From Vulcanimicrobiota bacterium (GTDB lineage Bacteria; Vulcanimicrobiota; Vulcanimicrobiia; Vulcanimicrobiales; Vulcanimicrobiaceae): DNA of 64,000 nucleotides. Below are positions 39,465-64,000 of this stretch, in pieces (positions within the stretch are counted from its first letter, which is position 1; each line of letters starts with the position of its first letter). The stretch covers positions 320,001 to 384,000 of the forward strand of contig CAVZQC010000004.1 in NCBI GenBank assembly GCA_963777315.1, given 5' to 3'. Under the pieces are notes generated by a model that was not told where the DNA came from, searched no databases, and was given only the letters and a program-made list of their open reading frames with translations. The translations under genes were made by a program, and so were the position numbers.

Positions 39465-39467
39465 ACC

Positions 39468-43889: not shown

Positions 43890-43937
43890 ATGAACGACGG
43901 TACATTCGTGCGCGGTTCGCAGCGGAGCGCCTGGTAA
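43890..43937 (+). other. 15-aa bridge mini-ORF MNDGTFVRGSQRSAW exactly filling the rplB-rpsS spacer
   Basis: TAG|ATG ... TAA|ATG. Confidence 0.55.
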
Positions 43938-44213
43938 ATGGGACGCAGCTTAAAGAAAGGCCCGTTCGTGGCCGAACACCTCATCGCCAAAATCGATTCC
44001 CTGAACGAACGGCGTGAGAAGCGCGTCATCAAGACGTGGAGCCGCGCGTCGGTGATCGTTCCCGCGATGGTCGGCCACACGATCGGCGTGCACAACGGTA
44101 AAGCGCACGTGCCCGTTTTCGTCACCGAGAACATGGTGGGACACAAGTTGGGCGAGTTCGCGCCGACTCGCACGTTTCGCGGTCACGGCGGCGACAAGGC
44201 TGCAGTAAAGTGA
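43938..44213 (+). CDS. rpsS: 30S ribosomal protein S19
   Basis: [19 protein letters not shown]. Confidence 0.98.
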
Positions 44214-44465
44214 TGCAACGTAATTTCGGCGCGCCCACGGGGAGCGCTCATATTAGCAGTGCGTTTATGCGCGCCATGGCTTGGGGGCCCCACGCTTTGG
44301 CGTGGGGGGCGCGGAGTTTGGAACGGAGCGCCTTGTACGATGCAACGTAATTTTGGCGCGCCCACGGGGAGCGCTCATATTAGCAGTGCGTTTATGCGCG
44401 CCATGGCCGGGGGGCCCCACGCTTTAGCGTGGGGGGCGCGGAGTTTGGAACGGAGCGCCTTGTAA
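44212..44465 (+). repeat. Tandem duplication of a structured 127-bp unit (2 copies)
   Basis: 44212-44338 and 44339-44465, 5 mismatches; CCCCACGC-TTTR-GCGTGGGG hairpin; ends in CGGAGCGCC RBS. Confidence 0.95.
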
Positions 44466-45014
44466 ATGGAAGCCGTCGCGCATCTCAAGTTCGCCCGCAT
44501 GGGGCCGCGCAAACTGCGCCGCGTCGCCGATGCGATTCGCGGCAGGAGCGTCAAAGAGGCGCTCGTGCTGCTGCAATTCGCCGGAGTGTTCGCCGCAGAG
44601 CCGATGGAGAAATTACTGCGCAGCGCCGTCGCCAACGCAGGCAACAACCACGACATGAATACGGACGAGTTATTCGTCACCCGCGTTACGGTCGACGGCG
44701 GCCCGGGCGGACGTTTCACCAAACGATTGGATCCCCGTGCGCAAGGGCGTGCCAACTTCAAGCGCAAGCGGATGGCTCACGTAACGGTTGTCGTCGGCGA
44801 GCAGCCGCCGGTGAAAAAGCGGCGCAGCTCGGGCGGCGCGTCGATCGGCGTGAAACGCGCAACGACGCGTAAGGGCGCCGCGGCCGGAGCCGCCGGCGCA
44901 AAAGCGCCTGCCAAGCGTAAAGCTTCAGCCCGCAAAACTGCACCGCGCAAAACTTCAACGCGCAAAGCGCGTCCCTCCAAGGCTGGATCAGCCGCAGGCG
45001 AAAAGGCGATTTAA
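44466..45014 (+). CDS. rplV: 50S ribosomal protein L22 with Lys/Ala-rich C-terminal tail
   Basis: [20 protein letters not shown]. Confidence 0.97.
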
Positions 45015-45985
45015 TGGGACAGAAAATTCATCCGGTCGGCCTGCGTCTGGGCATTACGCGTACCTGGGACAGCCGTTGGTTCGAGAAAAAGCACTACAAA
45101 GAGTGGCTGCACGAAGACGTAAAAATCCGCAAGTACTTTGCTCGGCTCGTTCGTCCGGCTGCCATCTCCAAGATCGAGATCGAGCGCAGGGCCAATCAAG
45201 CCCGCGTCATCGTCAATACAGGCAAGCCCGGCATCATCATCGGCAAGCGCGGCGTGGGGATTGAAGAGATCCGCAAAAACATCGAGCAGCTGACCGGCAA
45301 AAACGTCCAAGTCAACGTGATGGAGATTAAGCATCCGGAACTCGACGCGCGGCTGGTCGCGCAAAACATCGTCGATCAGCTCGAAAAGCGCATAGCGTTT
45401 CGGCGTGCGATGAAACAGGCGATCATGCGCACGATGAAAGCGGGTGCGCGCGGTATCAAAGTTCAAGTTTCCGGACGCCTGGGCGGCGCCGAGATCGCGC
45501 GTACCGAGCGCAATGCCGACGGGAAAGTGCCGTTGCACACGCTTCGTGCCGACATCGATTATGCGCAAGTCGAGGCGTTCACAACGTTCGGGCGGATCGG
45601 CGTGAAGGTGTGGATTTACCGCGGTGAAGTGCTTCCGGATCACACGCGCGGACCCGAACGCGAATCGCGCTCGGACCGCCCCCAATTCCGCGACCGCCGC
45701 GAGCGGGGCGGCCGTGGTCGCGGCCGCACCGGCACCGGCCAGCGTCCGGCGCAGTCCGCCGGTGAAACGCCTTCAGGTGAAACGCTTTCAACGGAAGAAG
45801 CGCCGGTTTCCGACGTATCGGAGGCGCAGCAGATCGTTCCCGCGGCGCAGCCGATCGTTCCCGAGGCGCAGCCGATCGTTCCCGGGGCCGAGCAGATCGT
45901 GCCTGAGGCGCAGCAGAACGTTCCCGAGACGCCGGCCGGCGTCACGTCCGATGCAGCGGAGGATGGCAGCGATGCTAACCCCTAA
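45014..45985 (+). CDS. rpsC: 30S ribosomal protein S3 with long C-terminal extension
   Basis: [35 protein letters not shown]. Confidence 0.98.
45821..45925 (+). repeat. 5 x 21-bp coding tandem repeat (EAQQIVP-like) in rpsC tail
   Basis: GAGGCGCAGCAGATCGTTCCC variants. Confidence 0.9.
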
Positions 45986-46406
45986 ACGAGTCAAATGGCG
46001 CCGGGTTCATCGCGGCCGCATGCGCGGCAAAGCGGTGCGCGGCAGCTCGCTCACGTTCGGCGAGTACGGGCTGCAGGCGCTTGAGCCGTGCTGGATGACC
46101 AATCGGCAGATTGAAGCCGCACGTATCGCGATGACCCGCCACATCAAGCGCGGCGGCAAAGTATGGATCAAAGTGTTTCCGGACAAGTCGGTTACGAAAA
46201 AACCGGCTGAAGTGCGCATGGGCGCGGGCAAGGGCAATCCCGAATTTTGGGTCGCCGTGGTGCGGCCCGGGCGCGTGCTGTTCGAGCTTTCCGGCGTTGC
46301 ACCGGACGTTGCGCGGCGAGCGCTGCAGCTTGCCGCCTCGAAGCTTCCTATCGGAACGAAGATTCTTTCGCGTGAGGAGATTCCCCAGGAGCGTGGCGCA
46401 GAATGA
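45972..46406 (+). CDS. rplP: 50S ribosomal protein L16
   Basis: [18 protein letters not shown]. Confidence 0.98.
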
Positions 46407-46624
46407 AGATTCACGAATTCAAAGAACTGCGCAATCTGACCATCGGCGAGCTGCAGCAAAAAGCTCGCGAAACGAAGGAAGAGCTGTTCAACCTTCGCTT
46501 TGCGCTGCGCACCGGTCACTTGTCTGATTTTTCCAAAGTGCGCGCCATTCGCCGCACGTACGCGCAGATCCAAACCGTTATCTCGGAAAAGCGGATCGCG
46601 GAGGCCAGAAATGGAGCAGCATAG
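46403..46624 (+). CDS. rpmC: 50S ribosomal protein L29
   Basis: KEELFNLRF. Confidence 0.95.
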
Positions 46625-46880
46625 CCAAGCGCGGCATAAGCGCCGCACCAAGCAAGGCCGCGTCGTTTCGGACAAAATGGACAAAACGATCGTCGTGCGC
46701 TCGGAAATGCGCGTGCCGCATCCCATTTACGGCAAGATCGTGCGCAAATCAGTGAAATTCAAAGCGCACGACGAACGCAATGAGGCCAAGGCCGGCGATA
46801 CGGTGCGCATCATGGAGTGCCGCCCGCTGTCCAAGGACAAGCGCTGGCGGCTGCTCGAGATTCTGGAGCGCGCCAAGTGA
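46611..46880 (+). CDS. rpsQ: 30S ribosomal protein S17
   Basis: [22 protein letters not shown]. Confidence 0.97.
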
Positions 46881-46897
46881 CGAACTCTCGGACCGAC

Positions 46898-47296
46898 CGG
46901 ACGGAGCGCCTTTTCAAAGCCGTCAGCCCTTTGCAAGCAAAGAATTGCTGCGTCGTAACGCAGCAATTCGATACCGCCTACCGGGCCCAACGGGGGCCCC
47001 TCGCAGTGGGGGGCGCGGAGTCTCGGACGGAGCGCCTTTTCAAAGCCGTCAGCCCTTTGCAAGCAAAGAATTGCTGCGTCGTAACGCAGCAATTCGATAC
47101 TGCCTACCGGGCCCAACGGGGGCCCCACGCAGTGGGGGGCGCGGAGTCTCGGACGGAGCGCCTTTTCAAAGCCGTCAGCCCTTTGCAAGCAAAGAATTGC
47201 TGCGTCGTAACGCAGCAATTCGATACCGCCTACCGGGCCCAACGGGGGCCCCACGCAGTGGGGGGCGCGGAGTCTCGGACGGAGCGCCTTTTCAAA
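46898..47296 (+). repeat. Tandem array of a structured 126-bp unit (3 copies plus 21-bp leading partial)
   Basis: Units start 46919, 47045, 47171; only two variable positions; perfect 12-bp hairpin GAATTGCTGCGT-CGTA-ACGCAGCAATTC; each ends CGGACGGAGCGCCTTTTCAAA. Confidence 0.97.
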
Positions 47297-47673
47297 TGAT
47301 CCAGCAAGAAACCCGCCTCAAAGTCGCCGACAACTCCGGCGCACGCGAGCTGCTGTGCATCCACGTGAGCGGCGGCAGCCGGCATCCGTACGCGCACGTC
47401 GGGGACATCGTGGTCGGCACGGTCAAGAGCGCCATTCCGGGCGCGGCGGTCAAAAAAGGACAAGTCGTCAAGGCCGTCATCGTGCGCACGTCGGCACCGA
47501 TTCGCCGCAGCGACGGTTCCGTCGTCAAGTGCGACGACAACGCCTGCGTGATCATCAAAGGCGACAAGGACAACCTGGACCCGCGCGGCACGCGCGTGTT
47601 CGGCCCGGTCATGCGGGAACTGCGCGACCGCGGCTTTCTGAAGATCGCTTCCCTCGCTCCGGAGGTGCTGTGA
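47296..47673 (+). CDS. rplN: 50S ribosomal protein L14
   Basis: [23 protein letters not shown]. Confidence 0.98.
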
Positions 47674-48023
47674 TGGCAGATATCATCAAGGGCGACACCG
47701 TTGCGATCCGCCGCGGCAAGGAAAAGGGAAAGCGCGGCGTGGTCAAAGCCGTTTTTCCAAAGTCCGGAATGGCGACGGTTGAAGGTTTGAACGTCGTCAA
47801 GCGCCACACCAAACAGGGTTCGCAGCAGCAGAACATGGGTGGTTCCGCGCAGACCGGCGGCATCATCGAAAAGGAAGCCCCCGTTCCCATTTCGGCCCTG
47901 CAGTACGTGTGCGAGAAATGCAGGACGCCCACGCGCATCCGCCGCCATGAAACCGCCGAAGGCACCAAACGCGTTTGCGCCAAGTGCGGCGAGCCCGCGC
48001 GCCTGTCGGTAAAAGGAGCCTAA
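47673..48023 (+). CDS. rplX: 50S ribosomal protein L24
   Basis: KGDTV...GKEKGK KOW motif, GGIIEKEAP. Confidence 0.96.
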   Translation: MADIIKGDTVAIRRGKEKGKRGVVKAVFPKSGMATVEGLNVVKRHTKQGSQQQNMGGSAQTGGIIEKEAPVPISALQYVCEKCRTPTRIRRHETAEGTKRVCAKCGEPARLSVKGA

Positions 48024-48047
48024 TGACACGTTCATTTACGCAGCGAG

Positions 48048-48599
48048 ATGAATAGATTAAAAGAAAAATACGATAAGGAAGTTCGCAGCCGCCTGCGCGA
48101 GCGCTTCGGATATCACAACGTTCATCAAATTCCACGCTTGGAAAAAGTCGTGGTCAACATGAGCGTTGGCGACGCCATCACCAATTCCAAAGTGCTCGAC
48201 ACCGCGGTTGCCGAGCTGCAGGCGATTAGCGGGCAAAAGCCGATCGTGACCAAGGCCAAAAAATCGATCGCCGCCTTCAAACTGCGCGAAGGCATGAACA
48301 TCGGCGCCAAAGTAACGCTCCGGGGCGACCGGATGTACGTGTTTTTGGACAAACTGTTCAACGTGGTGCTGCCGCGCATTCGCGACTTTCGCGGGCTGCC
48401 GCGCAAGTCGTTCGACGGACGCGGAAACTACAACATGGGGCTGCGCGAGCAAATCGTCTTTCCCGAGATCAACTTCGACAAAGTCGAAAAGATGCGCGGC
48501 ATGGACATCGTGATCGTAACGACGGCTAAGAACGACGAGGAAGCCACCGAATTTCTTACCGCGATGGGCTTGCCGCTGCAGAAAGCGGGTGCACGGTAA
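48048..48599 (+). CDS. rplE: 50S ribosomal protein L5
   Basis: [16 protein letters not shown]. Confidence 0.98.
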
Positions 48600-48784
48600 T
48601 GGCAAAAACCGCGCTCATCGAGAAATCGAAGCGGACGCCCAAGTTCAAAGTGCGCGCCCACAACCGTTGCGAGCTTTGCGGCCGGCCCCGCGGCGTTTAC
48701 CGCCGCTTCGGCCTGTGCCGGATTTGCTTTCGCGAGAACGCGCATAAAGGCAACGTTCCCGGCATTACCAAGGCGTCGTGGTGA
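48599..48784 (+). CDS. rpsN: 30S ribosomal protein S14, Zn-binding type Z
   Basis: 61 aa, CELC...CRIC, KASW. Confidence 0.97.
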
Positions 48785-48802
48785 ACCGGAGGATAGTGTA
48801 AA

Positions 48803-49204: not shown

Positions 49205-49206
49205 TT

Positions 49207-50120: not shown

Positions 50121-50627
50121 ATGCAATATCGTGGCCGCGACCGGGACAATTCCGGATTCGAAGAAACGGTCGTTCGCGTCAATCGCGTAGCAAAGGTCGT
50201 CAAGGGCGGTAAGCGCTTCAGCTTCAGCGCCTTGGTCGTGGTCGGCGATCGCAAGGGCAAAGTCGGTTACGCGATCGGCAAGGCCGGCGAAGTTCCCGAA
50301 GCGATCCGCAAGGGCGTCGAACAGGCAAAGAAAAGTTTGGTGTCAGTCCCAATGGTCGAGAAAACGATTCCGCACATCGTGAATCATCAAATCGGTTCGG
50401 CCCACGTGCTGCTCAAGCCCGCCGCTCCGGGTACGGGCGTCATCGCCGGCGGTGCGATGCGCGCAGTGCTCGAGCTGGCCGGCATCCACGACATTCTGAC
50501 AAAGTCGCTGGGAACGAACAATCCGATCAACGTCGTGTACGCGACCGTCGAAGCGCTGCGTTCGCTCACGACCGCCGAGCGGGTCGCTGCGCTGCGCGGA
50601 AAAAGCGTCGCGGATATTTTTGCTTGA
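50121..50627 (+). CDS. rpsE: 30S ribosomal protein S5
   Basis: [21 protein letters not shown]. Confidence 0.98.
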
Positions 50628-50651
50628 AGCGTAACGTGAGATTCGGACAAT

Positions 50652-51249
50652 ATGGCACAATCCAAGCGTAAAAAGACCCCGGCCAAAGCGGCCGCGCCCA
50701 AAACCCGGGCAGTGGAGAAGCCGGCTGTTATTGCGGGCGGCGGCGGTTCGACGCTTACGCTCGCTCAGCTGAAACCCGCGCCGGGCAGCCGGCCCAAGCG
50801 CACGCGCGTCGGGCGCGGGCATGGCTCCGGCATGGTCAAGACCGGCGGCGAGGGCGGCAAAGGCCAAACGGTGCGTTCGGGCGGCGGGAAAGGCCCCGCG
50901 TTCGAGGGCGGCCAGACGCCCTGGGCGCGCCGTCTGCCGCATCGGCGGGGATACTCGCAAAAAGCGCGCGACATCGGTCATTTTCGCACCCGTTTGGCCG
51001 TCGTCAATTTGAACGAGCTGATTCGATTGGGATCCTTCGGTCGAAGTGACGCCGCAAACGCTCAAAGTCGCACGCAAGATCAAGTCCATGCGTGACGGCG
51101 TAAAGATTCTGGGCGGCAATGCGAGCCGGTCCAAGGACGGCAAGACGCTTCCCACGGGACTGCGGTTCCGCGACGTGCTGTTTTCGAACAGCGCGCGCGA
51201 GGCGCTGACCGCCGCGGGGGCAACGATCGAGCCGGTCAGCGCACCCTAG
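50652..51249 (+). CDS. rplO: 50S ribosomal protein L15 (apparent +1 frameshift ~51023, likely sequence error)
   Basis: RVGRGHGSG, FEGGQTP; C-half VKILGG...AREALTAAG in next frame. Confidence 0.92.
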
Positions 51250-52545
51250 TGCTGAACAATCTGCGCGCTGCGCTGCTCGTCCCGGACATCCGTGCACGGG
51301 TCATGTTCGTGTTTTTCTCGTTCGCGGTGTTCGTTTTCATGATTCACGTGCAGTTGCCCAACGTGAACGACAAGGTTTGGCAGCAGCTGCTGTCCCAGGG
51401 AGTGTTTTACAACCTGCTGGGCTTTTTGTCCGGCGGCGCACTGCAGAAGTCTGTCTATCATCGCGATGGGCATCACACCCTACATCAACGCCTCGATCAT
51501 CATGCAGCTGATGACCGTCGTGCTGCCGCAGCTCGAGGAGATGGCCAAAAAAGGCGGCGAGGAAGGGCGCAAGAAAATCGGCCAGTACACGCGCTGGCTG
51601 ACGATCGTGCTGGCCACCCTGCAGGCGTTCTTCATGGCGAACATGATGCGCTCGGCGGGCGTGTTTTACGACAACAGCATTTGGTTCGAGCTGTTCGCGG
51701 TCACCGCGATGGTGGGCGGAACGCTGTTTCTCATGTGGCTGGGCGAGCAGATCACCGACAAAGGGATCGGCAACGGCGTGTCGTTGATCATCTTCATCGG
51801 CATCGTCCTGCGCTACCCGCAGTACGTCGCCCAGACCTACACGTCGACGACCAAAGGCGGCGAGTCCATCGCCAACATCGTCATCTACATCCTGATCGCG
51901 ATCGCCGTCGTCATCTCGATCGTGTTTCTCTACCAAGGGCAGCGCCGCGTTCCGGTGCAGCAGGCGCGCCGCGTCGTGGGCCGCAAGATGTTCGCCGGCC
52001 GGTCGACGTACATTCCGCTGCGTCTGAACAACGCCGGCGTCATCTCGATCATCTTCGCCATTTCGCTGCTGCTGCTGCCGCAGCAGGCGCTTTCGTGGTT
52101 CAATCGCGGCGGGGTTCACGCGGGAATCTGGGGCGGCGTTTCGGACTGGGTCAGCGTGTATTTCAGTCCCAACTCCTGGCTGTACAACCTGGTGTACTTC
52201 GTTTTGGTCGTCGTCTTCACGTTCTTCTATAGCGCCATCGTGATCAACACCAAAGATATCGCCGACAACCTCAAGAAAAGCGGCTCGTTCATTCCCGGCA
52301 TTCGGCCCGGCCAGCCGACGGTCGACTACATCAATCGAATCCTCATGCGCATCACCACCGCTGCCGCAATCTATCTCGGTTTGCTCGCGGTGCTGCCTGG
52401 AGCGCTTCAGCGCGGGCTCTCCGTCACGACGTTCTATTTGGGATCGACGTCGCTGCTGATCGTGGTCGGCGTTGCGCTCGACACGATCACGCAGATCGAA
52501 GCTCGCTTGGCGATGCGCGATTACCGGGGCTTCATCAAACGCTAA
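51249..52545 (+). CDS. secY: Preprotein translocase SecY (apparent +1 frameshift ~51450)
   Basis: MGITPYINASII, GIGNGVSLII, FIPGIRPG; AAG T CTG TCT ATC extra base. Confidence 0.95.
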
Positions 52546-52564
52546 TGCGAACGTGCGCGAGCCC

Positions 52565-53215
52565 ATGCGTCTGATTTTTCTGGGACCGCCCGGAGCCGGA
52601 AAAGGCACGCAGGCCCAGCTGCTGCAGGGGCGGCTAGGCTCGCGCCAGATCTCCACGGGCGACATCCTGCGTGAAAATCGCAGCCTTCGGACGGAACTGG
52701 GCAAAGCGGCCGAAAGTTTCATGCTCAAGGGCGCGCTGGTGCCCGATGAACTGGTCGTGAAGATGATCGAGCGCGAGCTCGACAAGACGCCGGGCGGGTT
52801 CATTCTGGATGGATTCCCGCGCACCGTTGCGCAAGCGGAAACCCTAGACGCACTGCTGGCCGCCAAGAGCATGTCGATCGATGCGGCTCTTTTGTTCAAA
52901 GCAGACCGCGCAGCGCTGCTGGAACGCCTGACGGCGCGCTGGACCAATCCGCATACGGGAAGAACGTACAACACGATCAGCAATCCTCCGCGCGTTGCCG
53001 GAATCGACGACGAAGACGGCACGCCGCTGGTTCAGCGCGAGGACGACAAACCTGCGACGGTCGCGAAGCGGCTCGAGGTTTACGATCGCCAAACGGCGCC
53101 GCTGATAGAGTATTACCGTCGAGTCGGCAAGCTCGTCGAAATCGACGCCATGGATTCGATGCAGGGCGTTACCGATCAGATCGTGGCCAAGCTCGCGGCC
53201 AAGGCGGCATCGTGA
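52565..53215 (+). CDS. adk: Adenylate kinase
   Basis: GPPGAGKGTQA, LDGFPRT. Confidence 0.97.
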   Translation: MRLIFLGPPGAGKGTQAQLLQGRLGSRQISTGDILRENRSLRTELGKAAESFMLKGALVPDELVVKMIERELDKTPGGFILDGFPRTVAQAETLDALLAAKSMSIDAALLFKADRAALLERLTARWTNPHTGRTYNTISNPPRVAGIDDEDGTPLVQREDDKPATVAKRLEVYDRQTAPLIEYYRRVGKLVEIDAMDSMQGVTDQIVAKLAAKAAS

Positions 53216-54016: not shown

Positions 54017-54043
54017 CCGCATGCCATCCAGGAAACGCCAACA

Positions 54044-54160
54044 ATGAAAGTCAGACCCTCGGTAAAGCGCATTTGCGAAAAATGCAAAATCATTCGTCGC
54101 GACGGCAAAGTTCGCGTCATTTGCGAGGCCAATCCCAAGCACAAACAGGTGCAGGGGTAG
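54044..54160 (+). CDS. rpmJ: 50S ribosomal protein L36
   Basis: Hand translation [38 protein letters not shown]. Confidence 0.97.
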
Positions 54161-54189
54161 AGCGGTCTTTGATGAGAGAAGAGGAATAA

Positions 54190-54576: not shown

Positions 54577-54597
54577 CGCCGTCACACCGCAGCGCCA

Positions 54598-55452
54598 GTG
54601 ATCTACGTCGGCACCTGCGGCTACGCGTACAAAGATTGGGCGGGGCCGTTTTATCCGCGCACCGTCCGGCCGCGGGAAATGCTGGCGTACTACGCGAGCT
54701 GCTTCGGGGCCGTGGAAATCGACGCTTCATATTACGGCGCGCTGCGGCCGGAGCAGGTCGCACGCATGGTCGCCGGCACGCCGCCGGCATTTCGCTTCTG
54801 CTTCAAGGTTCCCCAGACCGTGACCCATCCGGCGGATCCGGCCGCCGCTGGCATTCACCCCGATGCCCAAACGTTCGTTGAAAGTCTTGGGCCGGCGATC
54901 GATTCGGGCAAGTTCGGGTGCGCGCTCGCGCAGTTCCCCAATTCGTTCAAACCGACGCCCACTGCGCAAACCTATTTCGAGCGCGTGGTGGAAGCGCTCA
55001 AGCCGCTGCGTTTGATCGCCGAGTTCCGCCATCGGGAATGGCAAAACGCGCGCACGTTCGAATTGCTTTGCCGTCTGGACGTCGGGTGGTGCAACGTCGA
55101 CATGCCCGGCTATGAGACGTTGATGCATCCGAGCTCGGACGTTACCGGAGAGATTGGCTACGTGCGCTTTCACGGCCGAAACGCCGCGCGCTGGTGGACG
55201 GGAAATAACACCACGCGATACGACTACGAGTACGAAGCCGGCGAGTTGCAGCCTTGGACGAACCGGGTTGCCGATATCGACGAGCACGCGCAGACGACGT
55301 ATGCGTTCTTCAACAATCACGCTCGCGGCAACGCGCCGAGAAATGCCGAGCTGTTCGTCGAGATGCTGCGCGAGCGATACGGTGCTGCTGCAGACGGCGT
55401 TCTCCCCAAACTGAAGGGAGCTCCGGCGCAAGCCTCACTGTTCGAGCAGTAA
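54598..55452 (+). CDS. DUF72 (YecE-like TIM-barrel) protein
   Basis: YVGTCGYAYKDW.G.FYP, VEIDASYY, EFRH, YVRFHGRN, FFNNH. Confidence 0.9.
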   Translation: MIYVGTCGYAYKDWAGPFYPRTVRPREMLAYYASCFGAVEIDASYYGALRPEQVARMVAGTPPAFRFCFKVPQTVTHPADPAAAGIHPDAQTFVESLGPAIDSGKFGCALAQFPNSFKPTPTAQTYFERVVEALKPLRLIAEFRHREWQNARTFELLCRLDVGWCNVDMPGYETLMHPSSDVTGEIGYVRFHGRNAARWWTGNNTTRYDYEYEAGELQPWTNRVADIDEHAQTTYAFFNNHARGNAPRNAELFVEMLRERYGAAADGVLPKLKGAPAQASLFEQ

Positions 55453-57652
55453 CTTCGCACGAGCGGCGCGAGCCACGGCACGGTCCGAAAACGGCAGCGG
55501 CTGCAGTTCGCCGCGTACCCACGCGGCGCTCGCGTCGTTGTAATGAGGCGAACCGATCTCGCCGGACTCGCCGCTGGGTAAACTCAAACCTCCGCGATCC
55601 CAGGCGCCGACTTCCCAAACGGCGCGAAAGCTCTGCGACAGAGCGGGGGTTTGGACTCGAATCGTGTACTCGTCGCCGTCGCCGGGCAGCGTCGCCCCGT
55701 TCAAAAACGGAAAGCCGATCGGACCGAACGGATGCAGTATGCGCAGAGCTCCGGCTTGACTCCACGGCGCGGCTCGTTCGATGAAAGGATCGCGCAGCGC
55801 GTCGATCAGTTCGGGCGGCGGATCCCGGCGGCGAAGGGCCTCGAAGGGCGCGTACGGCGAAACGGAAGCGTCTTCGGCCGCAACGCGTAAGGCGTGCTCG
55901 AGCGTAGCGGTGCGCGACGGCGGGGAGAATGTACCGTCCCAGGCCGCCAAACGTCCGGCAACGGCGCTCGGTAGAAAACCGGGATGCGCTCGGGCGTAGT
56001 GCGCCAAACGGTGTGCGAACTCGGCGTCTGCAGGTGAGAGCGCATCGGTCTGCATCCGCGCGAAATACTGCGCGTCGAAATCCCGCCGGGCGTGCAGCAG
56101 AGTGGCAATCCGGTAAGCGCGATACGGCGGAGCAAACATCGGACTGAGGCGGTAAGGGTATCCGTTTGCGTACATTTTGTTGTTGGCGCTCACGAGCACG
56201 GCAGAGTGCGAAGGAGCAACCGACGGCAGGCGCGTGTAGGGAACCGCAGCAAAACGGGTGCGCAGTTCCGCCGCACCGTGCACGTACCGTCCCCAGGCGG
56301 GATCGTCGGGGATGGGACCCGCGAGATGATAGGCGACTTGCCCGCTGCTCCCCGCAAGCAAGAAATTTTGCGCAGGGCCGGAGTACTGCGACAATATCGA
56401 AAGCGCCGGCCGCAGACCGTGCGCGCGATCCAGCGCAAGGATCGTGCTGACGGCCGATCGCGTGTCGGAATACGGCGTCCACCGTACGAGGACCAAACCC
56501 TGCGCGGTTTGCGCGGCCTCGCCGTATTCACGAGACGTGCGGTAATACCGTTTGATCGCGTCGCGCGCGAACCGCACGTGGAAAATTTCCGTCTGCCAAT
56601 TTGCGGCGGAGAGCTTTCCCGCGCGAAAAACGCTCAGCGTGGCAACCATGGCGTTCGTTGTGGCCCAAGCGATGCGCTCGTTGTGGCCCAGCAGGACGCC
56701 CGGTATCCCGGCGATGGTCACACCGGCCACGTGCAGACCGGGGGCGCGCATTTCGACCGCGTACCAGATGCCCGGAATGCCCGCGCGCAAGTGCGGATCG
56801 TTGGCGAGCAGAGCGCGGCCGCTGCGCGAGCGTGCGCCTCCGGCGGCCCACGCGTTGCTGCCGATACCGGAGATTCGAACGTTCGGACCGGTACGCCAGG
56901 CAGCTCTGCAACAGCGGCGCCGAACGGCGCAATCGAACGGCAGTGTCGGAAACGTCGTAGTCGGGATCCGATAGCGGGAGTAATTGGCTGTATTCGCGAC
57001 GCGTGAACGATCGCCACAGGCGGTCTCGTTCCAGAACGTTGCCCGCAGTATCGCCCAGCGATGCCGAAATGGCCAGCGTGACGGCAAGACAATCCTGCGG
57101 CGCCCACGGTCGGGGATGGTAGAGCAGCAAACGAAATTCGACCGGCAACGGCTGCGTGCGCATTGCGGCATTCACCCCGTCGCTGAACGCCGACAGCGCG
57201 ATTCTGTCGTCGCCGGCAAGATGCCGCCACTGCCTGTGCACGACGTCGCGAACATCCAGAGCGCGCATCGTTTCGTCGCTCGGAAGTTGAATGGGTCCTA
57301 AAACTTCCGCAAGCCGGCCGTAGACGTACCGCCGGAAGAGATCCATTTGGAACAGCCGATCCGATCCTTGAGCGAAGCCCTCGGCAAAATACGCGTCGTG
57401 CGCGTTGCGGGCCCGAATGTGCGGTATGCCGCGGCTATCGCGATAGATCGCCGCCGGCGCGCGAACGCTCATGCCGGTCAGCGTGCCGTCCGTCACGGCG
57501 CCGGTCCGGATGCCGGCTAAGACGTATGCGGTGTACAGGAGGGCGCATGCAACCGCTACGGCGGCCCAAGCTTTGAGGTCGCGAAGGAGCCGGCCCGGCA
57601 CTCCGGCGTGAAATGCCCGAACGGCGCGTTCTTTTTCGATGAGGTCGGCCAT
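55435..57652 (-). CDS. Penicillin acylase family (Ntn-hydrolase), apparent +1 frameshift ~56871
   Basis: RDSRGIPHI, DRLFQMDL; GSNAWA nucleophile and LLANDPHL in the second frame; start uncertain. Confidence 0.88.
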
Positions 57653-57714
57653 GCTGCTGCTCGTACTGCATTGTACACCGAAGGAAAGCCGGGCGAGTCA
57701 AAAAAACCGCCGGA

Positions 57715-58458
57715 ATGCAGCTTGCCGCCGTCATCACCGCCGGAGGCCGGGTCGGCGGTGACTTCGCGCGCGCCATCGGTACGCAGGTCAAAGCGCTGGC
57801 GCCTTTTGGCGGCTCGACGATGTTAGAGCGCACGGTCGCGGCCGTGCGTGAAGCGGGGATCGACCGCGTTGCCGTCGTCGGCGGCAGTGAAGTACGGCGC
57901 GCCTGCGGCGGCATGGTCGATCGCATGCTGGACGAAAGCGCCGGCGGTGCGGAGAACTTGCGGATCGCGCTGCACGCGTGGGAGGATCGCACCCGGCTGC
58001 TCTATCTGACCAGCGATATGCCCTTCGTCTGCGCCGATGCGCTGCGGGCCTTCGTGCGAGCGGCGCCGCCGAACGCGCTGGGACTTGCATTAGCGCAGTG
58101 GAGTGAGTTTATTGCACGCTTTCCGGGTGCGCCCGAATTCGGGATCGTCCTGGCCGGCGAGCACGTGGTGAACGGGGGCGCGTTCATGATTCCTGCGGGC
58201 GCGGCGCGGCGCATCGAACGCGTCGCGGCTCCGTTCTTCAACGCGCGTAAGAATGTGTGGAGCATGGCGCGGCTTGCAGGTCCCGCGCTGCTGGCGCGCT
58301 TTGCCGTCGGCAGGCTCGGCGTCGCGCAGCTCGAGTCGCGCGCGCACCGTCTGCTCGGAATACCCGCAAAAGCCGTGCACGGCGCAGCGCCCGAGCTCGC
58401 GTACGACGTCGACGTTTTGGAAGAATACCGGTATGCGGTCCAGCACGAGAGCGCCTAA
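57715..58458 (+). CDS. MobA-like NTP transferase domain protein
   Basis: ITAGGR...KALAPFGG, TSDMPF, DVD. Confidence 0.8.
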   Translation: MQLAAVITAGGRVGGDFARAIGTQVKALAPFGGSTMLERTVAAVREAGIDRVAVVGGSEVRRACGGMVDRMLDESAGGAENLRIALHAWEDRTRLLYLTSDMPFVCADALRAFVRAAPPNALGLALAQWSEFIARFPGAPEFGIVLAGEHVVNGGAFMIPAGAARRIERVAAPFFNARKNVWSMARLAGPALLARFAVGRLGVAQLESRAHRLLGIPAKAVHGAAPELAYDVDVLEEYRYAVQHESA

Positions 58459-59620
58459 CACCGCCGCGCTGGGTGTATTTTGGTTGGGCATTCAAATGGT
58501 GTGGGGAGCTCTGCTGGGCGTGTCGCTTCAGGCTCGCGCGTCGCAGCTGGCACCGCAGCATGCGCTGTCGGCATACGCAACGTTGGCGGCCGTAGGCGCG
58601 GCAACGGCGGCAGTTACGCAGATCGCCGCGGGGGTCGCCTCGGATCGCCGCCGCGCGATGGGCAGCCGGCGCATCGAATTTTACGCGGTAGGGGCGATTG
58701 CAGCCGTAGGCGCGCTGTTTTGGTTTTATTCCGCGGCGACGTTTTCGCAGCTGCTTGGCGCGACCGCAGCCGTGCAATGCGCGCTGAACGTTGCAATCGG
58801 TCCTTATCAGGCGATCATCCCGGATTTTGTCAAAGACGAGCACACGGGAACGGCGTCTTCCTGGATGGCGGCACTTCAAAGCGCCGGAAATGCGGCAGGA
58901 GCGGTCGCAGCCGGCGTCATTTCGAATTCACGATTGGTCGCGCTTGCGATCGCGGCGGTTCTTTTGTCGACGTGCGCTGCAACCGTCGCGCAAGTACGCC
59001 GCCTCCCCATGCTTCCCGCAGCGCCGAAACCGCTGCAGATCGGCCGCTCGTTCGTCGATCTCTTCGTTTCACGCGCGCTCGTGTACTTGGGGTTTTACAC
59101 GCTCGTCGGATACCTGTATTTCTATGTTGCAAGCACGTTGAGCGGTAATGCGAAAATGATGACGGCCGCCGTGCTGCTCGTCTTCACGATGGCCGGCGTA
59201 CTCGGCGCTGCTGCAATTGCCGCGCCGGCGAACCGCGCGGATCGCCGCAGCGTGGCGACGCTCGGAGGCGCCGGTTTCATCCTTGCCGTGGCGGCCTTTC
59301 TCGTTTCGCACTCAGTCGCCGCAGTCGGCACAAGTGCGCTCATCGCAGGGATCGCCTGGGGTATTTTCTTAACGGCGGATTGGGCGCTGGGGTGCCGCTT
59401 GCTGCCGCGACATGCCTTGGCAACCGCGATGGGCGTTTGGAATCTTGCGCTGCTGGTGCCGCAAATCGCTGCACCCCTGATCGCAACCGGCGTTCTGAGC
59501 GCAGCACATGCGCTCGGCGGCGGGTCTGCTGCGCGCATTGCTTTCGAAATCGCCGCCGTGGAAGTCGCCGCAGGGATCGCGTGGATCTGGCGCCTGCCCG
59601 CTTCTACCCAGATCGGTTGA
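58433..59620 (+). CDS. MFS transporter
   Basis: 12 hydrophobic segments, GVASDR motif A. Confidence 0.82.
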   Translation: MRSSTRAPNTAALGVFWLGIQMVWGALLGVSLQARASQLAPQHALSAYATLAAVGAATAAVTQIAAGVASDRRRAMGSRRIEFYAVGAIAAVGALFWFYSAATFSQLLGATAAVQCALNVAIGPYQAIIPDFVKDEHTGTASSWMAALQSAGNAAGAVAAGVISNSRLVALAIAAVLLSTCAATVAQVRRLPMLPAAPKPLQIGRSFVDLFVSRALVYLGFYTLVGYLYFYVASTLSGNAKMMTAAVLLVFTMAGVLGAAAIAAPANRADRRSVATLGGAGFILAVAAFLVSHSVAAVGTSALIAGIAWGIFLTADWALGCRLLPRHALATAMGVWNLALLVPQIAAPLIATGVLSAAHALGGGSAARIAFEIAAVEVAAGIAWIWRLPASTQIG

Positions 59621-59784
59621 GAGTTGAACGGCGGGGAATACTCCCTAAGGCTCTAGGGTAGGGGGAACCTTGAGTTCGCCCTCCCACGTTAGGGGGAATG
59701 GAGACCGAGCCTGCCTTTGCATAGGTACGCAAGCCGAACGGCCGCGTTGGTCTCAACCCAACATTCAGTTTTAGGGAGGCTACA

Positions 59785-61314
59785 TTGAAACGACTGAGCA
59801 CCGGAGTCCTGGCTTCGCTTATTGTGGCAAGTCTAGGACTCACTGCGGTCGCCGCTCCGTCGGGCCACGCGTCACGGGGAAACATTGGACATAACGTGAT
59901 CGCACAAGCCACGCCGAGTGCATCGCCCGCAGCGTCGGCGACGCCGATGTCGTCCGCTGCACCCGCTGCAACGCCGATGTCGTCGGCTGCACCCGCTGCA
60001 ACGCCGATGTCGTCCGCTGCACCCGCTGCGACGCCGATGGCATCGCCGGGCAGCACGACGGCGCCGGCTGCAACGCCGATGTCATCCGCCGCGCCCGCGG
60101 CGCCAACCACCACTACTCCGCCCGCGACGACGAACATGCCGCCGATGCAGTTCGGATCGCCGCCGTCGGGGGAAATCCCGATCCTTTTCAATGACCACCA
60201 CGTGTATTCCAAACCGGACGTTCTCAAACAAGGGCGCGTCCTTGCCGCGTTGGTTCGCGGCGGCACTATTCTCGTTCCGCTGCGCTCGATGTTCGAGCAG
60301 ATGGGCGCAACGGTTTCGTACAATTCGGGCAGCAAGACGGTCGACGTGACCAAACCCGGATCGGACGTACGCGTTACGGTGGGCAAACCGGAAGTCACAA
60401 TCAACGGTGAAACTCGGCCGCTGGACGTTCCGCCCATGATGTATCACGGGCAGATCCTCGTGCCGGTGCGCGTCATTTCCGAAGGCATGGGCGCGTACGT
60501 ACAATGGGTACCCGATCGCCGAATCGTCGTCGTTCGGTACGTAACTGCCACCCCGCCGCCTGCGCCTGCTCCGCCTCCGGCCGCAGCGCCGACCCCGTCA
60601 GCGACGCCTTCACCGCGGGCGGCAGTGCCGTACCAAGATCACTTCATTGCGGGCGACTACATCATCAGCCCCAAGGTATACAACGAGTTCAGCCCGGGCA
60701 ACACCGGTAAGAGCGGTTCGTATGCCGTGCGCGGCGCACTGGAGTTTAATCTCTTCAGCCTGCCGTGGATGATCGCCGGCGATTTCCGGCAATACCAGTA
60801 TCCGCACAACTGTCCGGACGTGCTGCCTGCACCTGCCGGTTCGGAGTGCAACGTCAACGTGATCGGCGGTTTGGGATCGACGTACGTTCCCGCGTTCACC
60901 GCTAAGGACACCGACGTCGACGCGCGTTTGGGACTCAAGATTGCCGATCCGCGCATCTACATCGGCGTGGGCTACTTGTTCCGCACCACCAACTACGGAT
61001 ACCCGCGCCAGAACGGCGTCGGGTTTGGGCTGGAAAAACTGCCCGATCTCGATCATGCGTTCTCGCTCTACGGCAGCGCGTACTATTATCCGAGCGTCAA
61101 AGGAACGTGCGGCACCGACGTATGTCCTACCGGCCCGTACGATCTGCAGTATCGCATCCTCAAGTACCAAATCGGCGGAACGCTCAACTTCGGGAATCCG
61201 ACGGGCGTGTTCCTCGACTTCGGTTGGCTGGGCGACCAAGGGCGCAACAAACAGAATGCGCCTGCGGACTTCACCCACAACGGCCCGTACGTGGGTCTCG
61301 GCATCCACTTCTAA
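59785..61314 (+). CDS. Exported protein with copper amine oxidase N-terminal domain and aromatic beta-strand C-terminus
   Basis: Signal peptide; ILVPLRSMFEQMGATV and ILVPVRVISEGMGAYV repeats; ends YVGLGIHF. Confidence 0.82.
   Translation: MKRLSTGVLASLIVASLGLTAVAAPSGHASRGNIGHNVIAQATPSASPAASATPMSSAAPAATPMSSAAPAATPMSSAAPAATPMASPGSTTAPAATPMSSAAPAAPTTTTPPATTNMPPMQFGSPPSGEIPILFNDHHVYSKPDVLKQGRVLAALVRGGTILVPLRSMFEQMGATVSYNSGSKTVDVTKPGSDVRVTVGKPEVTINGETRPLDVPPMMYHGQILVPVRVISEGMGAYVQWVPDRRIVVVRYVTATPPPAPAPPPAAAPTPSATPSPRAAVPYQDHFIAGDYIISPKVYNEFSPGNTGKSGSYAVRGALEFNLFSLPWMIAGDFRQYQYPHNCPDVLPAPAGSECNVNVIGGLGSTYVPAFTAKDTDVDARLGLKIADPRIYIGVGYLFRTTNYGYPRQNGVGFGLEKLPDLDHAFSLYGSAYYYPSVKGTCGTDVCPTGPYDLQYRILKYQIGGTLNFGNPTGVFLDFGWLGDQGRNKQNAPADFTHNGPYVGLGIHF
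59938..60097 (+). repeat. ~5 x 30-bp coding tandem repeat (ATPMSSAAPA)
   Basis: ACGCCGATGTCGTCCGCTGCACCCGCTGCA units. Confidence 0.9.
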
Positions 61315-61331
61315 CCGGTCATTCGAGCAAG

Positions 61332-61362
61332 AAAATGGCTCCGTGCGAACGGAGCCATTTTT
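61332..61362 (+). terminator. Rho-independent terminator
   Basis: AAAATGGCTCCGT-GCGA-ACGGAGCCATTTT. Confidence 0.85.
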
Positions 61363-61406
61363 ATTGCCTGCCGCTTGCCTGCCGATCGGGGATGCCGCTA
61401 TGCTCC

Positions 61407-61435
61407 TTGACCGCGCCGGTATGCTCTAGTAGAAT
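61407..61435 (+). promoter_or_regulatory. Sigma70 promoter upstream of rpsK
   Basis: TTGACC-17bp-TAGAAT. Confidence 0.8.
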
Positions 61436-61643
61436 AACCTCTTGGCGCCGGCCTCTCTTCCGGCGCGCTCCGCGTGCTGTAGCCGCACCCCGGAGCCGGG
61501 CTCATTCGCCGGGAGTTCGAGATCAGATGGAACGCGTTCCAACCGCGTGAAGTCCAGGCGACGACACCGCTCTCGTTGAGCGGACAGGATAAAATTCGCA
61601 TCGCCATCCCGACCTCGCGCAACGGATGTCGCTGGAGCTGACT

Positions 61644-62039: not shown

Positions 62040-62048
62040 AGAGAACGC

Positions 62049-62705
62049 ATGTCACGCTATACTGGACCCGTATGCCGTTTATGCCGTCGCGAAACCGCGG
62101 CGAGCAAAACGGGCGAAAAAATCAAACTGTTTCTCAAAGGCGACCGCTGTTTGAGCAAAAAGTGCGCCGTCGAGCGCCGCGGCACGGCGCCGGGCCAGAA
62201 GACGCAAGGCAAACAGCGTCAAAAGGTTTCCGAATACGGCCGTCAGCTGCGAGAGAAGCAGAAGATGCGCCGGTATTACGGCGTGCACGAAACGCAGTTC
62301 GAGAATTACTTTCGCGAAGCCGCACGCGTTCCGGGTCAGACGGGCCGCACCTTCCTGCAGCTGCTCGAGCGCCGTCTTGACAACGTCGTCTATCGTTTGA
62401 ATTTGGCGAACAGCCGCGCGCAGGCGCGCCAACTCGTTACCCACCGCCATTTCCGCGTGAACGACCGGCTGGTCAATATTCCTTCGTACATCCTCAAAAC
62501 CGGCGACGTGATCAGCGTCGGCGAACGCAGCAAGAAATCGCCGGTGTTCGAATCGAATTTCGAGGTTGCGCGAAACCGCCGAGCTCCCGAGTGGCTCGAG
62601 TACAACGACGCGGATCAGTCCGCGCGCGTGGTGCAGCTGCCCAGCCGCGAGCAGATCGACACGCCGGTCGACGAGCAGCTGATCGTCGAATATTATTCTC
62701 GTTAG
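62049..62705 (+). CDS. rpsD: 30S ribosomal protein S4
   Basis: [24 protein letters not shown]. Confidence 0.98.
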
Positions 62706-62820
62706 CCTTTTTTACGCGAGAAACCAGTAACCAAAGCCGCTCCTAGGCGTGCGATCGCAGGCGACCCCGTGGTCTGCTGCGGATAACGTAAGGAGCAATA
62801 AAGGAACCCGAACACCGACC

Positions 62821-63747
62821 ATGACCGTATTGGATATGCCGCAAGGCGCAAGCATCGAAGTACGCGAGCGCCGCGATAACTACGCCAAGTTCGTGATCGA
62901 GCCGCTGGAACGCGGCTTCGGCATCACGCTCGGCAACGCGCTGCGGCGGATACTGCTCAGTTCCATCCCCGGAGCCGCCGTCACGTACATGAAGATCGAC
63001 GGTGTGCTGCACGAATTTTCGACCATCCCGGGAATCGTCGAAGACACCATCGCCCTGATGCTCAATCTCAAGGGCCTGCCCGTCAAGCTCAACACCGACG
63101 AACCCAAAGTGCTCACGCTCAGCGCGGGCGGCGAAAAGGAAGTGACCGCAGCCGATATCGCACCCGACGCCGACGTCGAGGTGCTGGATCCCGGCTATCA
63201 CATCGCTACGCTGTCTTCCAAGTCCGCCAAGCTCTCGATGGAGATCGGCATAGAAACCGGGCGCGGTTACGTTACGGCCGATCGCCAGCGCAACGTCGAG
63301 CACATGATCGGGCTCATCCCGCTGGACTCGATCTTCTCGCCCATCCGCAAAGTCAACTTCACGGTAGACGATACGCGCGTGGGTCAGAACGTGGACTTCG
63401 ACCGCCTTACCATCGAAATGGAAACCAACGGCTCGGTGACGCCCGACGAGGCGCTGGCCACAGCAGCCCAGATCATGCAAGAGCAGCTGGACTTGTTCGT
63501 CGACTTCACCAACGAAGAGAAGCCGTTGCCTCAGGCGCCGACCAGCGAATGGGACATTCCGGTCGAAACGCTCAACCTTTCCGTGCGCTCCTTCAATTGC
63601 CTCAAACGAGCGGGAATCTCCAAGGTTTCCGAATTGCTCGACATGAGTGAGGACGAGATCATCAAAATGCGCAACTTCGGCAAGAAGTCGCTGGACGAGA
63701 TCAAGCAAGTTCTCGAAGAACGCGGCCTCTCGCTGCGCCCGTCATGA
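62821..63747 (+). CDS. rpoA: RNA polymerase alpha subunit
   Basis: EPLERGFGITLGNALRR, SVRSFNCLKRAG, NFGKKSLDEI. Confidence 0.98.
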   Translation: MTVLDMPQGASIEVRERRDNYAKFVIEPLERGFGITLGNALRRILLSSIPGAAVTYMKIDGVLHEFSTIPGIVEDTIALMLNLKGLPVKLNTDEPKVLTLSAGGEKEVTAADIAPDADVEVLDPGYHIATLSSKSAKLSMEIGIETGRGYVTADRQRNVEHMIGLIPLDSIFSPIRKVNFTVDDTRVGQNVDFDRLTIEMETNGSVTPDEALATAAQIMQEQLDLFVDFTNEEKPLPQAPTSEWDIPVETLNLSVRSFNCLKRAGISKVSELLDMSEDEIIKMRNFGKKSLDEIKQVLEERGLSLRPS

Positions 63748-63784
63748 GAATCACTGGACGATTTTACTAATGGAAGCACTGTAG

Positions 63785-64000
63785 ATGCCGCACCAAATCG
63801 CGTACAAACGACTTTCGCGCACGGACGCGCACCGCAAAGCCCTGCTGCGCAATCTGGCGACGTCGTTTTTCAAACACGAGAAAATCGAAACGACCTCGGC
63901 CAAAGCCAAAGAAGTCGGTAAAGTCGTCGAGCGCCTCATCACCACGGCGGCCCGGGGCGATCTGCACTCGCGCCGCTTGATCGCGCAATACATTACGGAA
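63785..64000 (+). CDS. rplQ: 50S ribosomal protein L17 (partial, runs off window)
   Basis: MPHQIAYKRLSRTDAHRKALLRNLATSFFKHEKIETTSAKAKE. Confidence 0.95.
   Translation, partial: MPHQIAYKRLSRTDAHRKALLRNLATSFFKHEKIETTSAKAKEVGKVVERLITTAARGDLHSRRLIAQYITE

What the first reader, a model, noticed from the sequence alone, without database searches (positions are those of the whole stretch)
43890..63787. Systematic 'bridge' mini-ORFs fill the spacers of the ribosomal superoperon: a possible translational-relay system
Seen: nine spacers hold a short ORF starting at or near the upstream stop and ending at or near the downstream start. rplB-rpsS 43890-43937 (TAG|ATG..TAA|ATG, 15 aa). rpsS-rplV 44213-44350 then 44340-44465 (TGATG..TAA|ATG). 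rpsQ-rplN 46877-47299 (GTGA..ATGA). rplX-rplE 48023-48055 ([15 protein letters not shown]). rpsN-rpsH 48781-48801 (GTGA, MNRRIV). secY-adk 52545-52574 (TAATG, MRTCASPCV). map-rpmJ 54021-54047 ([12 protein letters not shown]). rpmJ-rpsM 54172-54189 (MREEE, TAA|ATG). rpoA-rplQ carries two in series. Established: stop/start overlaps drive termination-reinitiation coupling and stoichiometry in r-protein operons. Inference: the peptides are unrelated, so the act of translation, carrying ribosomes across spacers, would be what is selected; some downstream genes (rplE, adk) have no clear SD. I do not know of this being described as an operon-wide architecture.
Basis: partly seen in the sequence, partly recalled or inferred. 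Interest (0 to 1): 0.85.

Follow-up and report, generated by a model that had tools for sequence, protein, structure and literature searches.

The report
Repeat inserts bridging ribosomal gene junctions
Short hairpin repeats have landed on normally overlapping stop/start signals in this bacterium's ribosomal-protein operon, and each leaves a throw-away reading frame that could pass ribosomes on to the next gene, much as MIRU repeats are thought to do in mycobacteria.

Summary
All listed ORFs are present and exceed chance: 8 of 15 spacers are bridged against about 1 expected. They are not a conserved operon-wide relay. In 120 same-family loci the orthologous junctions are mostly direct overlaps (rplB-rpsS 78 of 103, rpsQ-rplN 98 of 120), and long spacers are scattered gains on a tree. 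The two long bridges are tandem copies of a dispersed ~120-nt hairpin repeat that ends in an SD-like GGAGCGCC and an A/T tail before the ATG; rplB-rpsS looks like an eroded copy. Where a start sits at the upstream stop of a normally direct junction, 89 of 98 inserts close at the next start, against 12 and 14 after a +1/+2 shift. The same holds at element sites genome-wide (35 of 39) but not for spacers in general. rpsN-rpsH and rpmJ-rpsM are probably chance. This is MIRU-like: an apparently undescribed sequence family with a known principle. Translation of the bridges is inferred, not shown.

The parts
43890..43937 (+). rplB-rpsS bridge ORF (15 aa); probable eroded element copy, ends GGAGCGCC (43924-43931) TGGTAA|ATG
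   Evidence: only a weak profile match to the element's 3' end (E 0.07); full-length elements sit at this junction in L009, L016, L017, L028, L064, L074 and short tail-bearing relics in L008, L024
44212..44464 (+). rpsS-rplV: two tandem copies (period 127) of the A1 hairpin element
   Evidence: profile E 1e-22 for each copy
44213..44350 (+). bridge ORF in copy 1 (TGATG overlap with the rpsS stop), ends 11 nt into the next ORF
44340..44465 (+). bridge ORF in copy 2; preceded by copy 1's tail SD; ends TAA|ATG at rplV
46898..47296 (+). rpsQ-rplN: 3.2 tandem copies of a 126-nt unit carrying the element's 3' core (GGGGGCCCC hairpin, terminal hairpin, GGAGCGCC)
46877..47299 (+). 140-codon bridge ORF, GTGA overlap with rpsQ and ATGA overlap with rplN
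48023..48055 (+). rplX-rplE bridge ORF (10 aa); its ATG sits at the TAATG overlap with a strong SD inside rplX, probably the old rplE start; the present rplE start has no SD
   Evidence: 105 of 117 relatives have a direct junction; no profile match to the element
48781..48801 (+). rpsN-rpsH short ORF (6 aa); probably chance: GTGA follows from Trp-TGA, and rpsH has a strong own SD
   Evidence: 8 bridged and 40 not among relatives with a spacer of 15 nt or more
52545..52574 (+). secY-adk bridge ORF (9 aa), TAATG overlap; stop 10 nt inside adk (start 52565); adk lacks an SD
   Evidence: 71 of 95 relatives direct, 9 bridged, 4 not
54021..54047 (+). map-rpmJ short ORF (8 aa) at a junction where many relatives hold an infA-sized gene; origin unclear
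   Evidence: 49 of 94 relatives have more than 180 nt here, 14 bridged, 22 not; one long spacer checked holds an infA-like frame
54172..54189 (+). rpmJ-rpsM MREEE ORF; starts 11 nt after the stop and is the translated SD; probably chance
   Evidence: 3 bridged and 22 not in relatives
63744..63770 (+). rpoA-rplQ first short ORF (MRITGRFY*), ATGA overlap with rpoA
   Evidence: sequence; chain of two found; 0 of 12 relatives carry a single-ORF bridge
63770..63784 (+). rpoA-rplQ second short ORF (MEAL*), TAATG overlap, ends TAG|ATG at rplQ

Best explanation
The r-protein operon of this family is ancestrally built from direct stop/start junctions. A family of ~120-nt GC-rich hairpin repeats (MIRU-like) inserts at start codons. 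The old start codon, with its SD inside the upstream gene, stays at the upstream stop and now opens a junk ORF. The insert's 3' end supplies a new SD-like GGAG in a hairpin and an A/T tail with a stop beside a new start. Copies whose junk frame runs open from the old start to the new one keep the chain of coupled translation and are tolerated in essential operons; they then expand in tandem or erode to 15-50-nt relics that stay in frame. Shown: geometry, repeat identity, sporadic gain, frame constraint. Inferred: that ribosomes translate the bridge and reinitiate; that the short bridges without a recognisable repeat (rplX-rplE, secY-adk, perhaps rpoA-rplQ and map-rpmJ) are relics. rpsN-rpsH and rpmJ-rpsM are most likely chance.
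For: Tandem repeats with a shared core in the two long spacers. Core pattern in 87 of 215 same-family genomes, 0 of 85 genomes of other families of the phylum, none in the reversed control. In 69 of 121 pattern loci a start codon opening a long frame lies 5-9 nt after GGAGCGCC. Orthologous junctions are mostly direct; a midpoint-rooted tree of 113 loci gives the short state at the root for all 9 junctions tested, with 18 changes for 22 long rplB-rpsS spacers and 6 for 6 at rplX-rplE. Dereplicated spacers of 30 nt or more: 97 of 190 bridged against 22 expected; of 121 with a start at the stop, 97 close, against 18 and 18 after +1/+2 shifts; 99 against 22 and 28 with the in-frame extensions put back. 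At mostly-direct junctions 89 of 125 are bridged, at the others 30 of 169. Element sites elsewhere: 35 of 51 bridged; of 39 with a start, 7 and 4 after shifts. The core is read in all three frames (18/16/13), so no peptide is kept. 12 of 56 short spacers at direct junctions still carry an element-type tail. Arms of both hairpins covary (149 of 154 and 149 of 153 paired; swapped-arm maxima 126 and 124). Coupling falls by 80-90% or is lost at a 38-nt gap in E. coli (PMC10666635 section 6), which gives a reason for the constraint.
Against: No translation or expression data. Part of the frame is built into the element: in subfamily A2 the internal frame is open in 9 of 11 copies not coupled to an upstream stop, against 18 of 18 coupled copies, so host-level selection is not cleanly separated from inheritance. 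No target duplication beyond the start codon is detectable. No Y1 transposase was found in this 90% complete genome and no mobilising enzyme was identified. Five short bridges have no profile match to the element. One four-copy array in this genome is not bridged (C2 near 511 kb). The whole units do not fold better than shuffles (z 0.06 and -1.70). Genomes are related, so the P values overstate.
Confidence: 0.75

Rival explanations
1. By-product of element design: the repeat carries its own open frame, SD and stop-rich tail, inherited from source copies. Bridges need no host selection and need not be translated in a way that matters; the downstream gene initiates on the element's SD.
For: The A2 frame is open in 9 of 11 uncoupled copies and in 9 of 15 copies with no downstream gene called. 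rpsS, rplV and rplN get a usable SD from the tail (-5.8 kcal/mol). An NTGA start comes almost free when the upstream stop is TGA.
Against: Insert lengths vary freely (mod 3: 23/25/15) and all three frames of the core are used. 45 bridged long spacers match none of the motif families, and eroded relics stay bridged. Bridging is concentrated at ancestrally direct junctions (89 of 125 against 30 of 169).
Confidence: 0.2
2. The open frame is selected, but to avoid harm rather than to deliver ribosomes: it keeps a structured insert covered by ribosomes (against Rho polarity or decay) and stops ribosomes from the old start running out of frame over the new start. This can hold together with the best explanation.
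For: The old start keeps its SD (rplX-rplE bridge start -7.7 kcal/mol), so it would load ribosomes regardless. Untranslated stretches destabilise transcripts in E. coli (PMC10666635 section 6).
Against: Closure falls within a few bases of the new start (commonest pairs -4/-4, -4/+1, -4/-1), and rplE and adk have no SD of their own, which fits reinitiation.
Confidence: 0.25
3. One reading: an operon-wide, evolved relay system of dedicated mini-ORFs in the r-protein superoperon.
For: 8-9 of 12 operon spacers are bridged, with no such excess in spacers of 30-450 nt genome-wide (28 of 578 against 12 and 28 shifted).
Against: No bridge is conserved: relatives mostly have direct junctions; the same-genus locus L001 has different spacers or none; long spacers are repeated independent gains; the element lies mainly outside these operons.
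Confidence: 0.06
4. All bridges are chance ORFs in GC-rich spacers.
For: Single short spacers reach a bridge in 15-25% of shuffles (rplX-rplE, rpsN-rpsH, rpoA-rplQ), and the cut-offs were set after seeing the data.
Against: 8 of 15 against 1.0 expected, 4 of 15 against 0.26 under the tight rule; family-wide frame-shift controls. Chance remains the likely reading only for rpsN-rpsH and rpmJ-rpsM.
Confidence: 0.02

Closest known systems
MIRUs, mycobacterial interspersed repetitive units (Supply et al. 1997; not read, seen only as summarised in passages of PMC12548453, and PMC3184786)
   Same: Short dispersed GC-rich repeats with internal inverted repeats, in operon spacers, inserted at start codons, carrying an ORF whose ends meet the flanking genes; also found as tandem arrays.
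   Different: Other phylum and, as far as seen, another sequence (homology to MIRUs not tested). Units about 110-130 nt rather than 40-100. Coupling geometry varies (-11 to +4) rather than -4. No tetranucleotide duplication detectable as a rule. The 3' end carries an SD-like motif in a covarying hairpin. Several unrelated insert families do the same at these junctions.
Integron ORF-11/ORF-17 and short ORFs across attC sites (passages of PMC8876359)
   Same: A short ORF whose translation, not its peptide, raises downstream translation; an ORF across a hairpin element relieves the barrier by termination-reinitiation.
   Different: No integrase, att sites or cassettes here; the flanking genes are core operon genes.
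Translational coupling by termination-reinitiation at ATGA/TGATG/TAATG overlaps (PMC10666635: abstract and section 6)
   Same: Same junction geometry at both ends of each bridge; 14 of 26 junctions in the window are already direct.
   Different: Coupling runs through an intervening junk ORF; some bridge ends (-8, -10, -11, +4) lie outside the commonest spacings.
Neisseria REP2 and Borrelia IR repeats (passages of PMC3184786)
   Same: Repeats with internal hairpins that carry a ribosome-binding site and sit immediately upstream of genes.
   Different: Those carry a promoter and lie in 5' regions; a promoter was not tested here, and these copies sit between coupled genes.

Membership tests
MIRU-type repeat | Dispersed in many copies in the genome | tested here: met
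   7 core matches in this genome and up to 34 in a same-family genome; profile hits at 5 loci here, one weak, none in the reversed genome. Fewer than the 40-50 quoted for MIRUs.
MIRU-type repeat | Located between co-oriented genes, at the start codon | tested here: met
   69 of 121 pattern loci have a start 5-9 nt after the motif; inserts occupy junctions that are direct in relatives.
MIRU-type repeat | Internal ORF coupled to the flanking genes | tested here: met
   35 of 51 analysable sites bridged; 7 and 4 after frame shifts.
MIRU-type repeat | GC-rich internal inverted repeats | tested here: met
   Hairpins in the folds; arm covariation across 77 and 51 distinct variants.
MIRU-type repeat | Tandem arrays of variable copy number | tested here: met
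   2 and 3.2 copies in the window; arrays on contig C2; single copies at the same junctions in relatives. Variation within a species not tested.
MIRU-type repeat | Tetranucleotide direct repeats flanking filled sites | tested here: inconclusive
   -4/-4 (NTGA at both ends) is the commonest geometry, 15 of 97, but no identity above shuffled pairs beyond the start codon in 154 bridges.
MIRU-type repeat | Unit size about 40-100 bp | tested here: not met
   Units of 126-127 nt in the window and mostly 110-140 nt elsewhere; a 66-nt unit on C2 and shorter relics exist.
MIRU-type repeat | Sequence homology to mycobacterial MIRUs | not tested
Filed as MIRU-like, not as a MIRU.
MIRU-type repeat | Co-transcribed and translated within the operon mRNA | not testable with these tools
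   No RNA holder listed.
REP with RAYT (Y1) transposase | Y1 transposase gene in the genome | tested here: inconclusive
   PF01797 not found in G000, which is 90% complete; relatives not searched.
Described structured RNA family (Rfam) | Match at the gathering threshold | tested here: not met
   0 matches in window 41200-64000.

The most novel reading that the evidence does not exclude
A start-codon-targeting mobile hairpin family whose conserved terminal hairpin (3x3 GNA/GGA internal loop) partly hides the SD that it donates, so that the invaded gene comes to depend on ribosomes arriving through the element's own junk ORF. Essential junctions then cycle from overlap to insert to eroded relay, and an unknown enzyme recognises translation start sites or their DNA signature. 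The r-protein operon of this one family would be a natural series of about a hundred independent experiments on how far and in which frames coupling can work.
Probability: 0.3. Interest if true: 0.7.

Novelty: new member of a known kind. Interest (0 to 1): 0.4.

Why it matters
It explains odd spacers and spurious small ORFs in an uncultured soil lineage, and puts numbers on an idea that for MIRUs rests on few loci: inserts at coupled junctions survive mostly when a frame runs from the old start to the new one. The filled and empty states of the same essential junction across many genomes give ready-made constructs for testing reinitiation against RNA unfolding or new initiation. It is not a new regulatory system of the ribosomal operon.

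Tried and rejected
Operon-wide conserved relay: rejected on non-conservation. General property of spacers in this genome: no excess for 30-450 nt (28 of 578 against 12 and 28); a small one for 15-29 nt (23 of 142 against 8 and 14) (own gene caller with 23 of 26 known starts right). Target-site duplication beyond the start codon: not detected. Enrichment of ATG at the upstream stop at element sites was modest (24 of 51 against 16.1), so the signal lies in closure, not in the start. Y1 transposase not found. Rfam: no match. Whole-unit folding no better than shuffles. One search covered only about half the loci through an orientation fault and was replaced. Earlier notes by place and by sequence gave nothing. 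Paper searches listed no paper on this repeat or on bridge ORFs in this phylum; the library lacks most subscription papers, including Supply et al. 1997, and no supplements were read.
Full report
Observation. Gene starts were set from translations (adk corrected to 52565). Of 26 junctions from rplC to rplQ, 14 are direct and 12 have spacers of 9 nt or more. A bridge was defined as a start codon within -4..+4 of the upstream stop whose frame ends within -11..+4 of the downstream start, allowing two ORFs in series. 8 of 12 qualify, against 2.1 expected from the more conservative of two shuffles. With three str-operon spacers added, none bridged, the count is 8 of 15 against 1.0; a tight rule gives 4 of 15 against 0.26; shifting each spacer by one or two bases leaves 2 and 2. 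The cut-offs were chosen after seeing the window. rpmJ-rpsM qualifies only under a loose rule; rpsE-rplO, rpsK-rpsD and rpsD-rpoA do not qualify.

The long spacers are repeats. rpsS-rplV is two copies of a 127-nt unit and rpsQ-rplN is 3.2 copies of a 126-nt unit. Both end in a GGGGGCCCC hairpin, a second hairpin and GGAGCGCC a few bases before the ATG. The same end precedes ATGs at two loci on contig C2. One of these arrays is bridged (+4/-4); the other has stops in all frames and is not. Profiles built from 28 + 28 copies hit five loci in this genome, one weakly, and none in the reversed genome. Among the window's short spacers only rplB-rpsS matches, weakly (E 0.07).

Distribution. The core pattern occurs in 87 of 215 genomes of the same family and in 0 of 85 genomes of other families of the phylum; the reversed pattern never occurs. 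That tally includes three matching genomes marked unpublished there (G141, G021, G028) and four non-matching ones marked unpublished (G099, G019, G108, G051); no other claim rests on them. 66 of the 80 titled records are labelled Vulcanimicrobiota, Eremiobacteraeota, WPS-2 or taxa that I recall as belonging there; 6 are unlabelled bacteria, 6 are one Binatia genome, one is Limnocylindria and one Acidoferrum. From this I infer that the window comes from Vulcanimicrobiaceae (Baltobacteraceae). Only 7 of the 121 loci match one of the window's r-protein or rpoA genes.

Orthologous junctions. rplN was located in 141 of 151 family genomes, and 120 loci were fetched and annotated by tblastn. Counts of direct / bridged / unbridged spacers of 15 nt or more, out of all scored (single-ORF rule; the rest are 7-14 nt or have an uncertain start): rplB-rpsS 78/21/0 of 103; rpsS-rplV 99/1/0 of 105; rpsQ-rplN 98/7/1 of 120; rplX-rplE 105/4/1 of 117; secY-adk 71/9/4 of 95; rpsN-rpsH 42/8/40 of 116; rpmJ-rpsM 58/3/22 of 94; map-rpmJ 5/14/22 of 94, with 49 holding more than 180 nt; rpoA-rplQ 0/0/4 of 12. 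The same-genus locus L001 has other spacers, or none, at these places and a 289-nt element array at rpsH-rplF, which is direct in the window. On a midpoint-rooted tree of 113 loci the short state is at the root for all nine junctions tested, and long spacers need nearly one change each at the mostly-direct junctions. No outgroup was used. So no individual bridge is conserved.

What is conserved is the rule. From 370 candidate spacers of 15-450 nt (left out beforehand: uncertain starts, rpsE-rplO, map-rpmJ above 180 nt), 36 in-frame N-terminal extensions were set aside and 294 remained after dereplication within each junction. For 30 nt or more, 97 of 190 are bridged against 22 expected. Of 121 with a start at the upstream stop, 97 close at the downstream start, against 18 and 18 after adding one or two bases; with the extensions put back the figures are 99, 22 and 28. 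At mostly-direct junctions 89 of 125 spacers are bridged (89 of 98 with a start; 12 and 14 shifted); at the other junctions 30 of 169. At element sites across genomes, 51 of 121 loci could be scored (the others lacked a callable flanking gene; 8 were ambiguous): 35 are bridged, 12 have no start at the stop and 4 do not close; shifts leave 7 and 4. Kinship inflates the significance of all these counts. In this genome's spacers of 30-450 nt at large there is no excess (28 of 578 against 12 and 28).

Peptide versus frame. The GGGGGCCCC core is read in all three frames (18, 16, 13) and spacer lengths fall in all classes mod 3, so no peptide is kept. Short spacers at direct junctions often look like eroded copies: 12 of 56 keep an element-type tail. 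Against a purely host-level reading, subfamily A2 keeps its own frame open in 9 of 11 copies that are not coupled to an upstream stop, as well as in 18 of 18 coupled copies. Part of the constraint therefore belongs to the element.

Anatomy and mechanism. The tail gives rpsS, rplV and rplN an SD of -5.8 kcal/mol against the genome's own 16S end. At rplX-rplE the strong SD (-7.7) lies before the bridge ATG and rplE has none (+1.5), as expected if the bridge start is the old gene start. The GGAG of the tail is predicted partly paired (unpaired probabilities 0.17-0.72 at rplV, 0.10-0.37 at rplN), and the arms of both hairpins covary across copies (G-T counted as a pair; the copies are related). 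Whole units do not fold better than shuffles. In E. coli reporters a 38-nt gap cut reinitiation by 80-90% or abolished it (PMC10666635, section 6), so a 50-400-nt insert would uncouple a junction unless a frame spans it. I infer: insertion at the start codon; termination at the upstream stop and reinitiation at the old start; translation through the hairpins; termination beside the new start and reinitiation there. None of the translation steps is shown. How the element moves is unknown: no duplication beyond the start codon and no Y1 transposase found.

Case by case. Repeat-derived with high confidence: rpsS-rplV, rpsQ-rplN. Probable relic: rplB-rpsS. Consistent with relics but without a recognisable repeat: rplX-rplE and secY-adk. 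Unclear: map-rpmJ and rpoA-rplQ. Probably chance: rpsN-rpsH and rpmJ-rpsM, where relatives keep SD-only spacers that are mostly unbridged.

Comparison with what is known. PMC12548453 (passages) describes MIRUs as apparently mobile repeats that insert at start codons so that an internal ORF is coupled to the gene at -4 spacing, and notes short ORFs whose only role is to deliver ribosomes. PMC3184786 (passages) gives MIRU size, direct repeats and overlap with both neighbours. PMC8876359 (passages) describes short ORFs across integron attI and attC sites. The original MIRU paper was not available. The element works like a MIRU; it is not filed as one, because homology was not tested and the size differs. 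Eight searches listed no description of this repeat family, and Rfam has no match. Earlier notes of this scan report the same arrangement in other lineages; they are unchecked AI notes and count here only as a sign that the pattern recurs.

Verdict. A real, above-chance feature, explained as MIRU-like inserts and their relics at coupled junctions, with one or two chance ORFs. New member of a known kind; interest 0.4.

Noticed in passing
window 50652-51249 (rplO), 51249-52545 (secY), 53212-54016 (map): Three housekeeping genes each show one frame break against intact relatives (near 51020, 51390-51450 and 53707); most likely assembly indel errors.
   Followed up: partly
window 54016-54044: No infA between map and rpmJ, where about half the relatives hold a gene-sized spacer; two infA-like genes of 47-49% identity to the L017 frame lie elsewhere (C4 near 636 kb, C1 near 105 kb).
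   Followed up: partly
window 50627-50652: No rpmD (L30) between rpsE and rplO, and PF00327 was not found in this 90% complete genome.
   Followed up: partly
window 35425-41486 and 54576-61626: The superoperon is split twice: rpsJ follows tuf and lies about 5.7 kb before rplC, and about 7 kb of unrelated genes lie between rpsM and rpsK (0.3-5.8 kb in the relatives scored).
   Followed up: no
L006 rpsS-rplV junction; L066 secY-adk junction: In L006 an element-like hairpin is fused in frame to the N-terminus of rplV; in L066 the element lies in reverse orientation and still forms a -4/-4 bridge.
   Followed up: no
loci L001-L120, long spacers: At least three other insert families occupy these junctions; one with a CTCAGG REP-like hairpin is mostly unbridged (4 bridged, 11 without a start).
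   Followed up: partly
window 44800-45014 and 45650-45985: rplV and rpsC carry long low-complexity C-terminal extensions with 15- and 21-nt tandem repeats.
   Followed up: no
window 62706-62820: The rpsD-rpoA spacer is about 80-115 nt in most relatives and never bridged (0 of 26), which suggests a conserved leader or signal; no Rfam match.
   Followed up: no
window 59785-61314: A 509-aa ORF with Ala/Pro/Thr-rich 30-nt repeats sits in the rpsM-rpsK gap, followed by a terminator-like hairpin near 61335-61365.
   Followed up: no
window 13344-13371 and 14561-14588: A 28-nt inverted repeat pair 1.19 kb apart (93% complementary), as at the ends of an insertion sequence.
   Followed up: no
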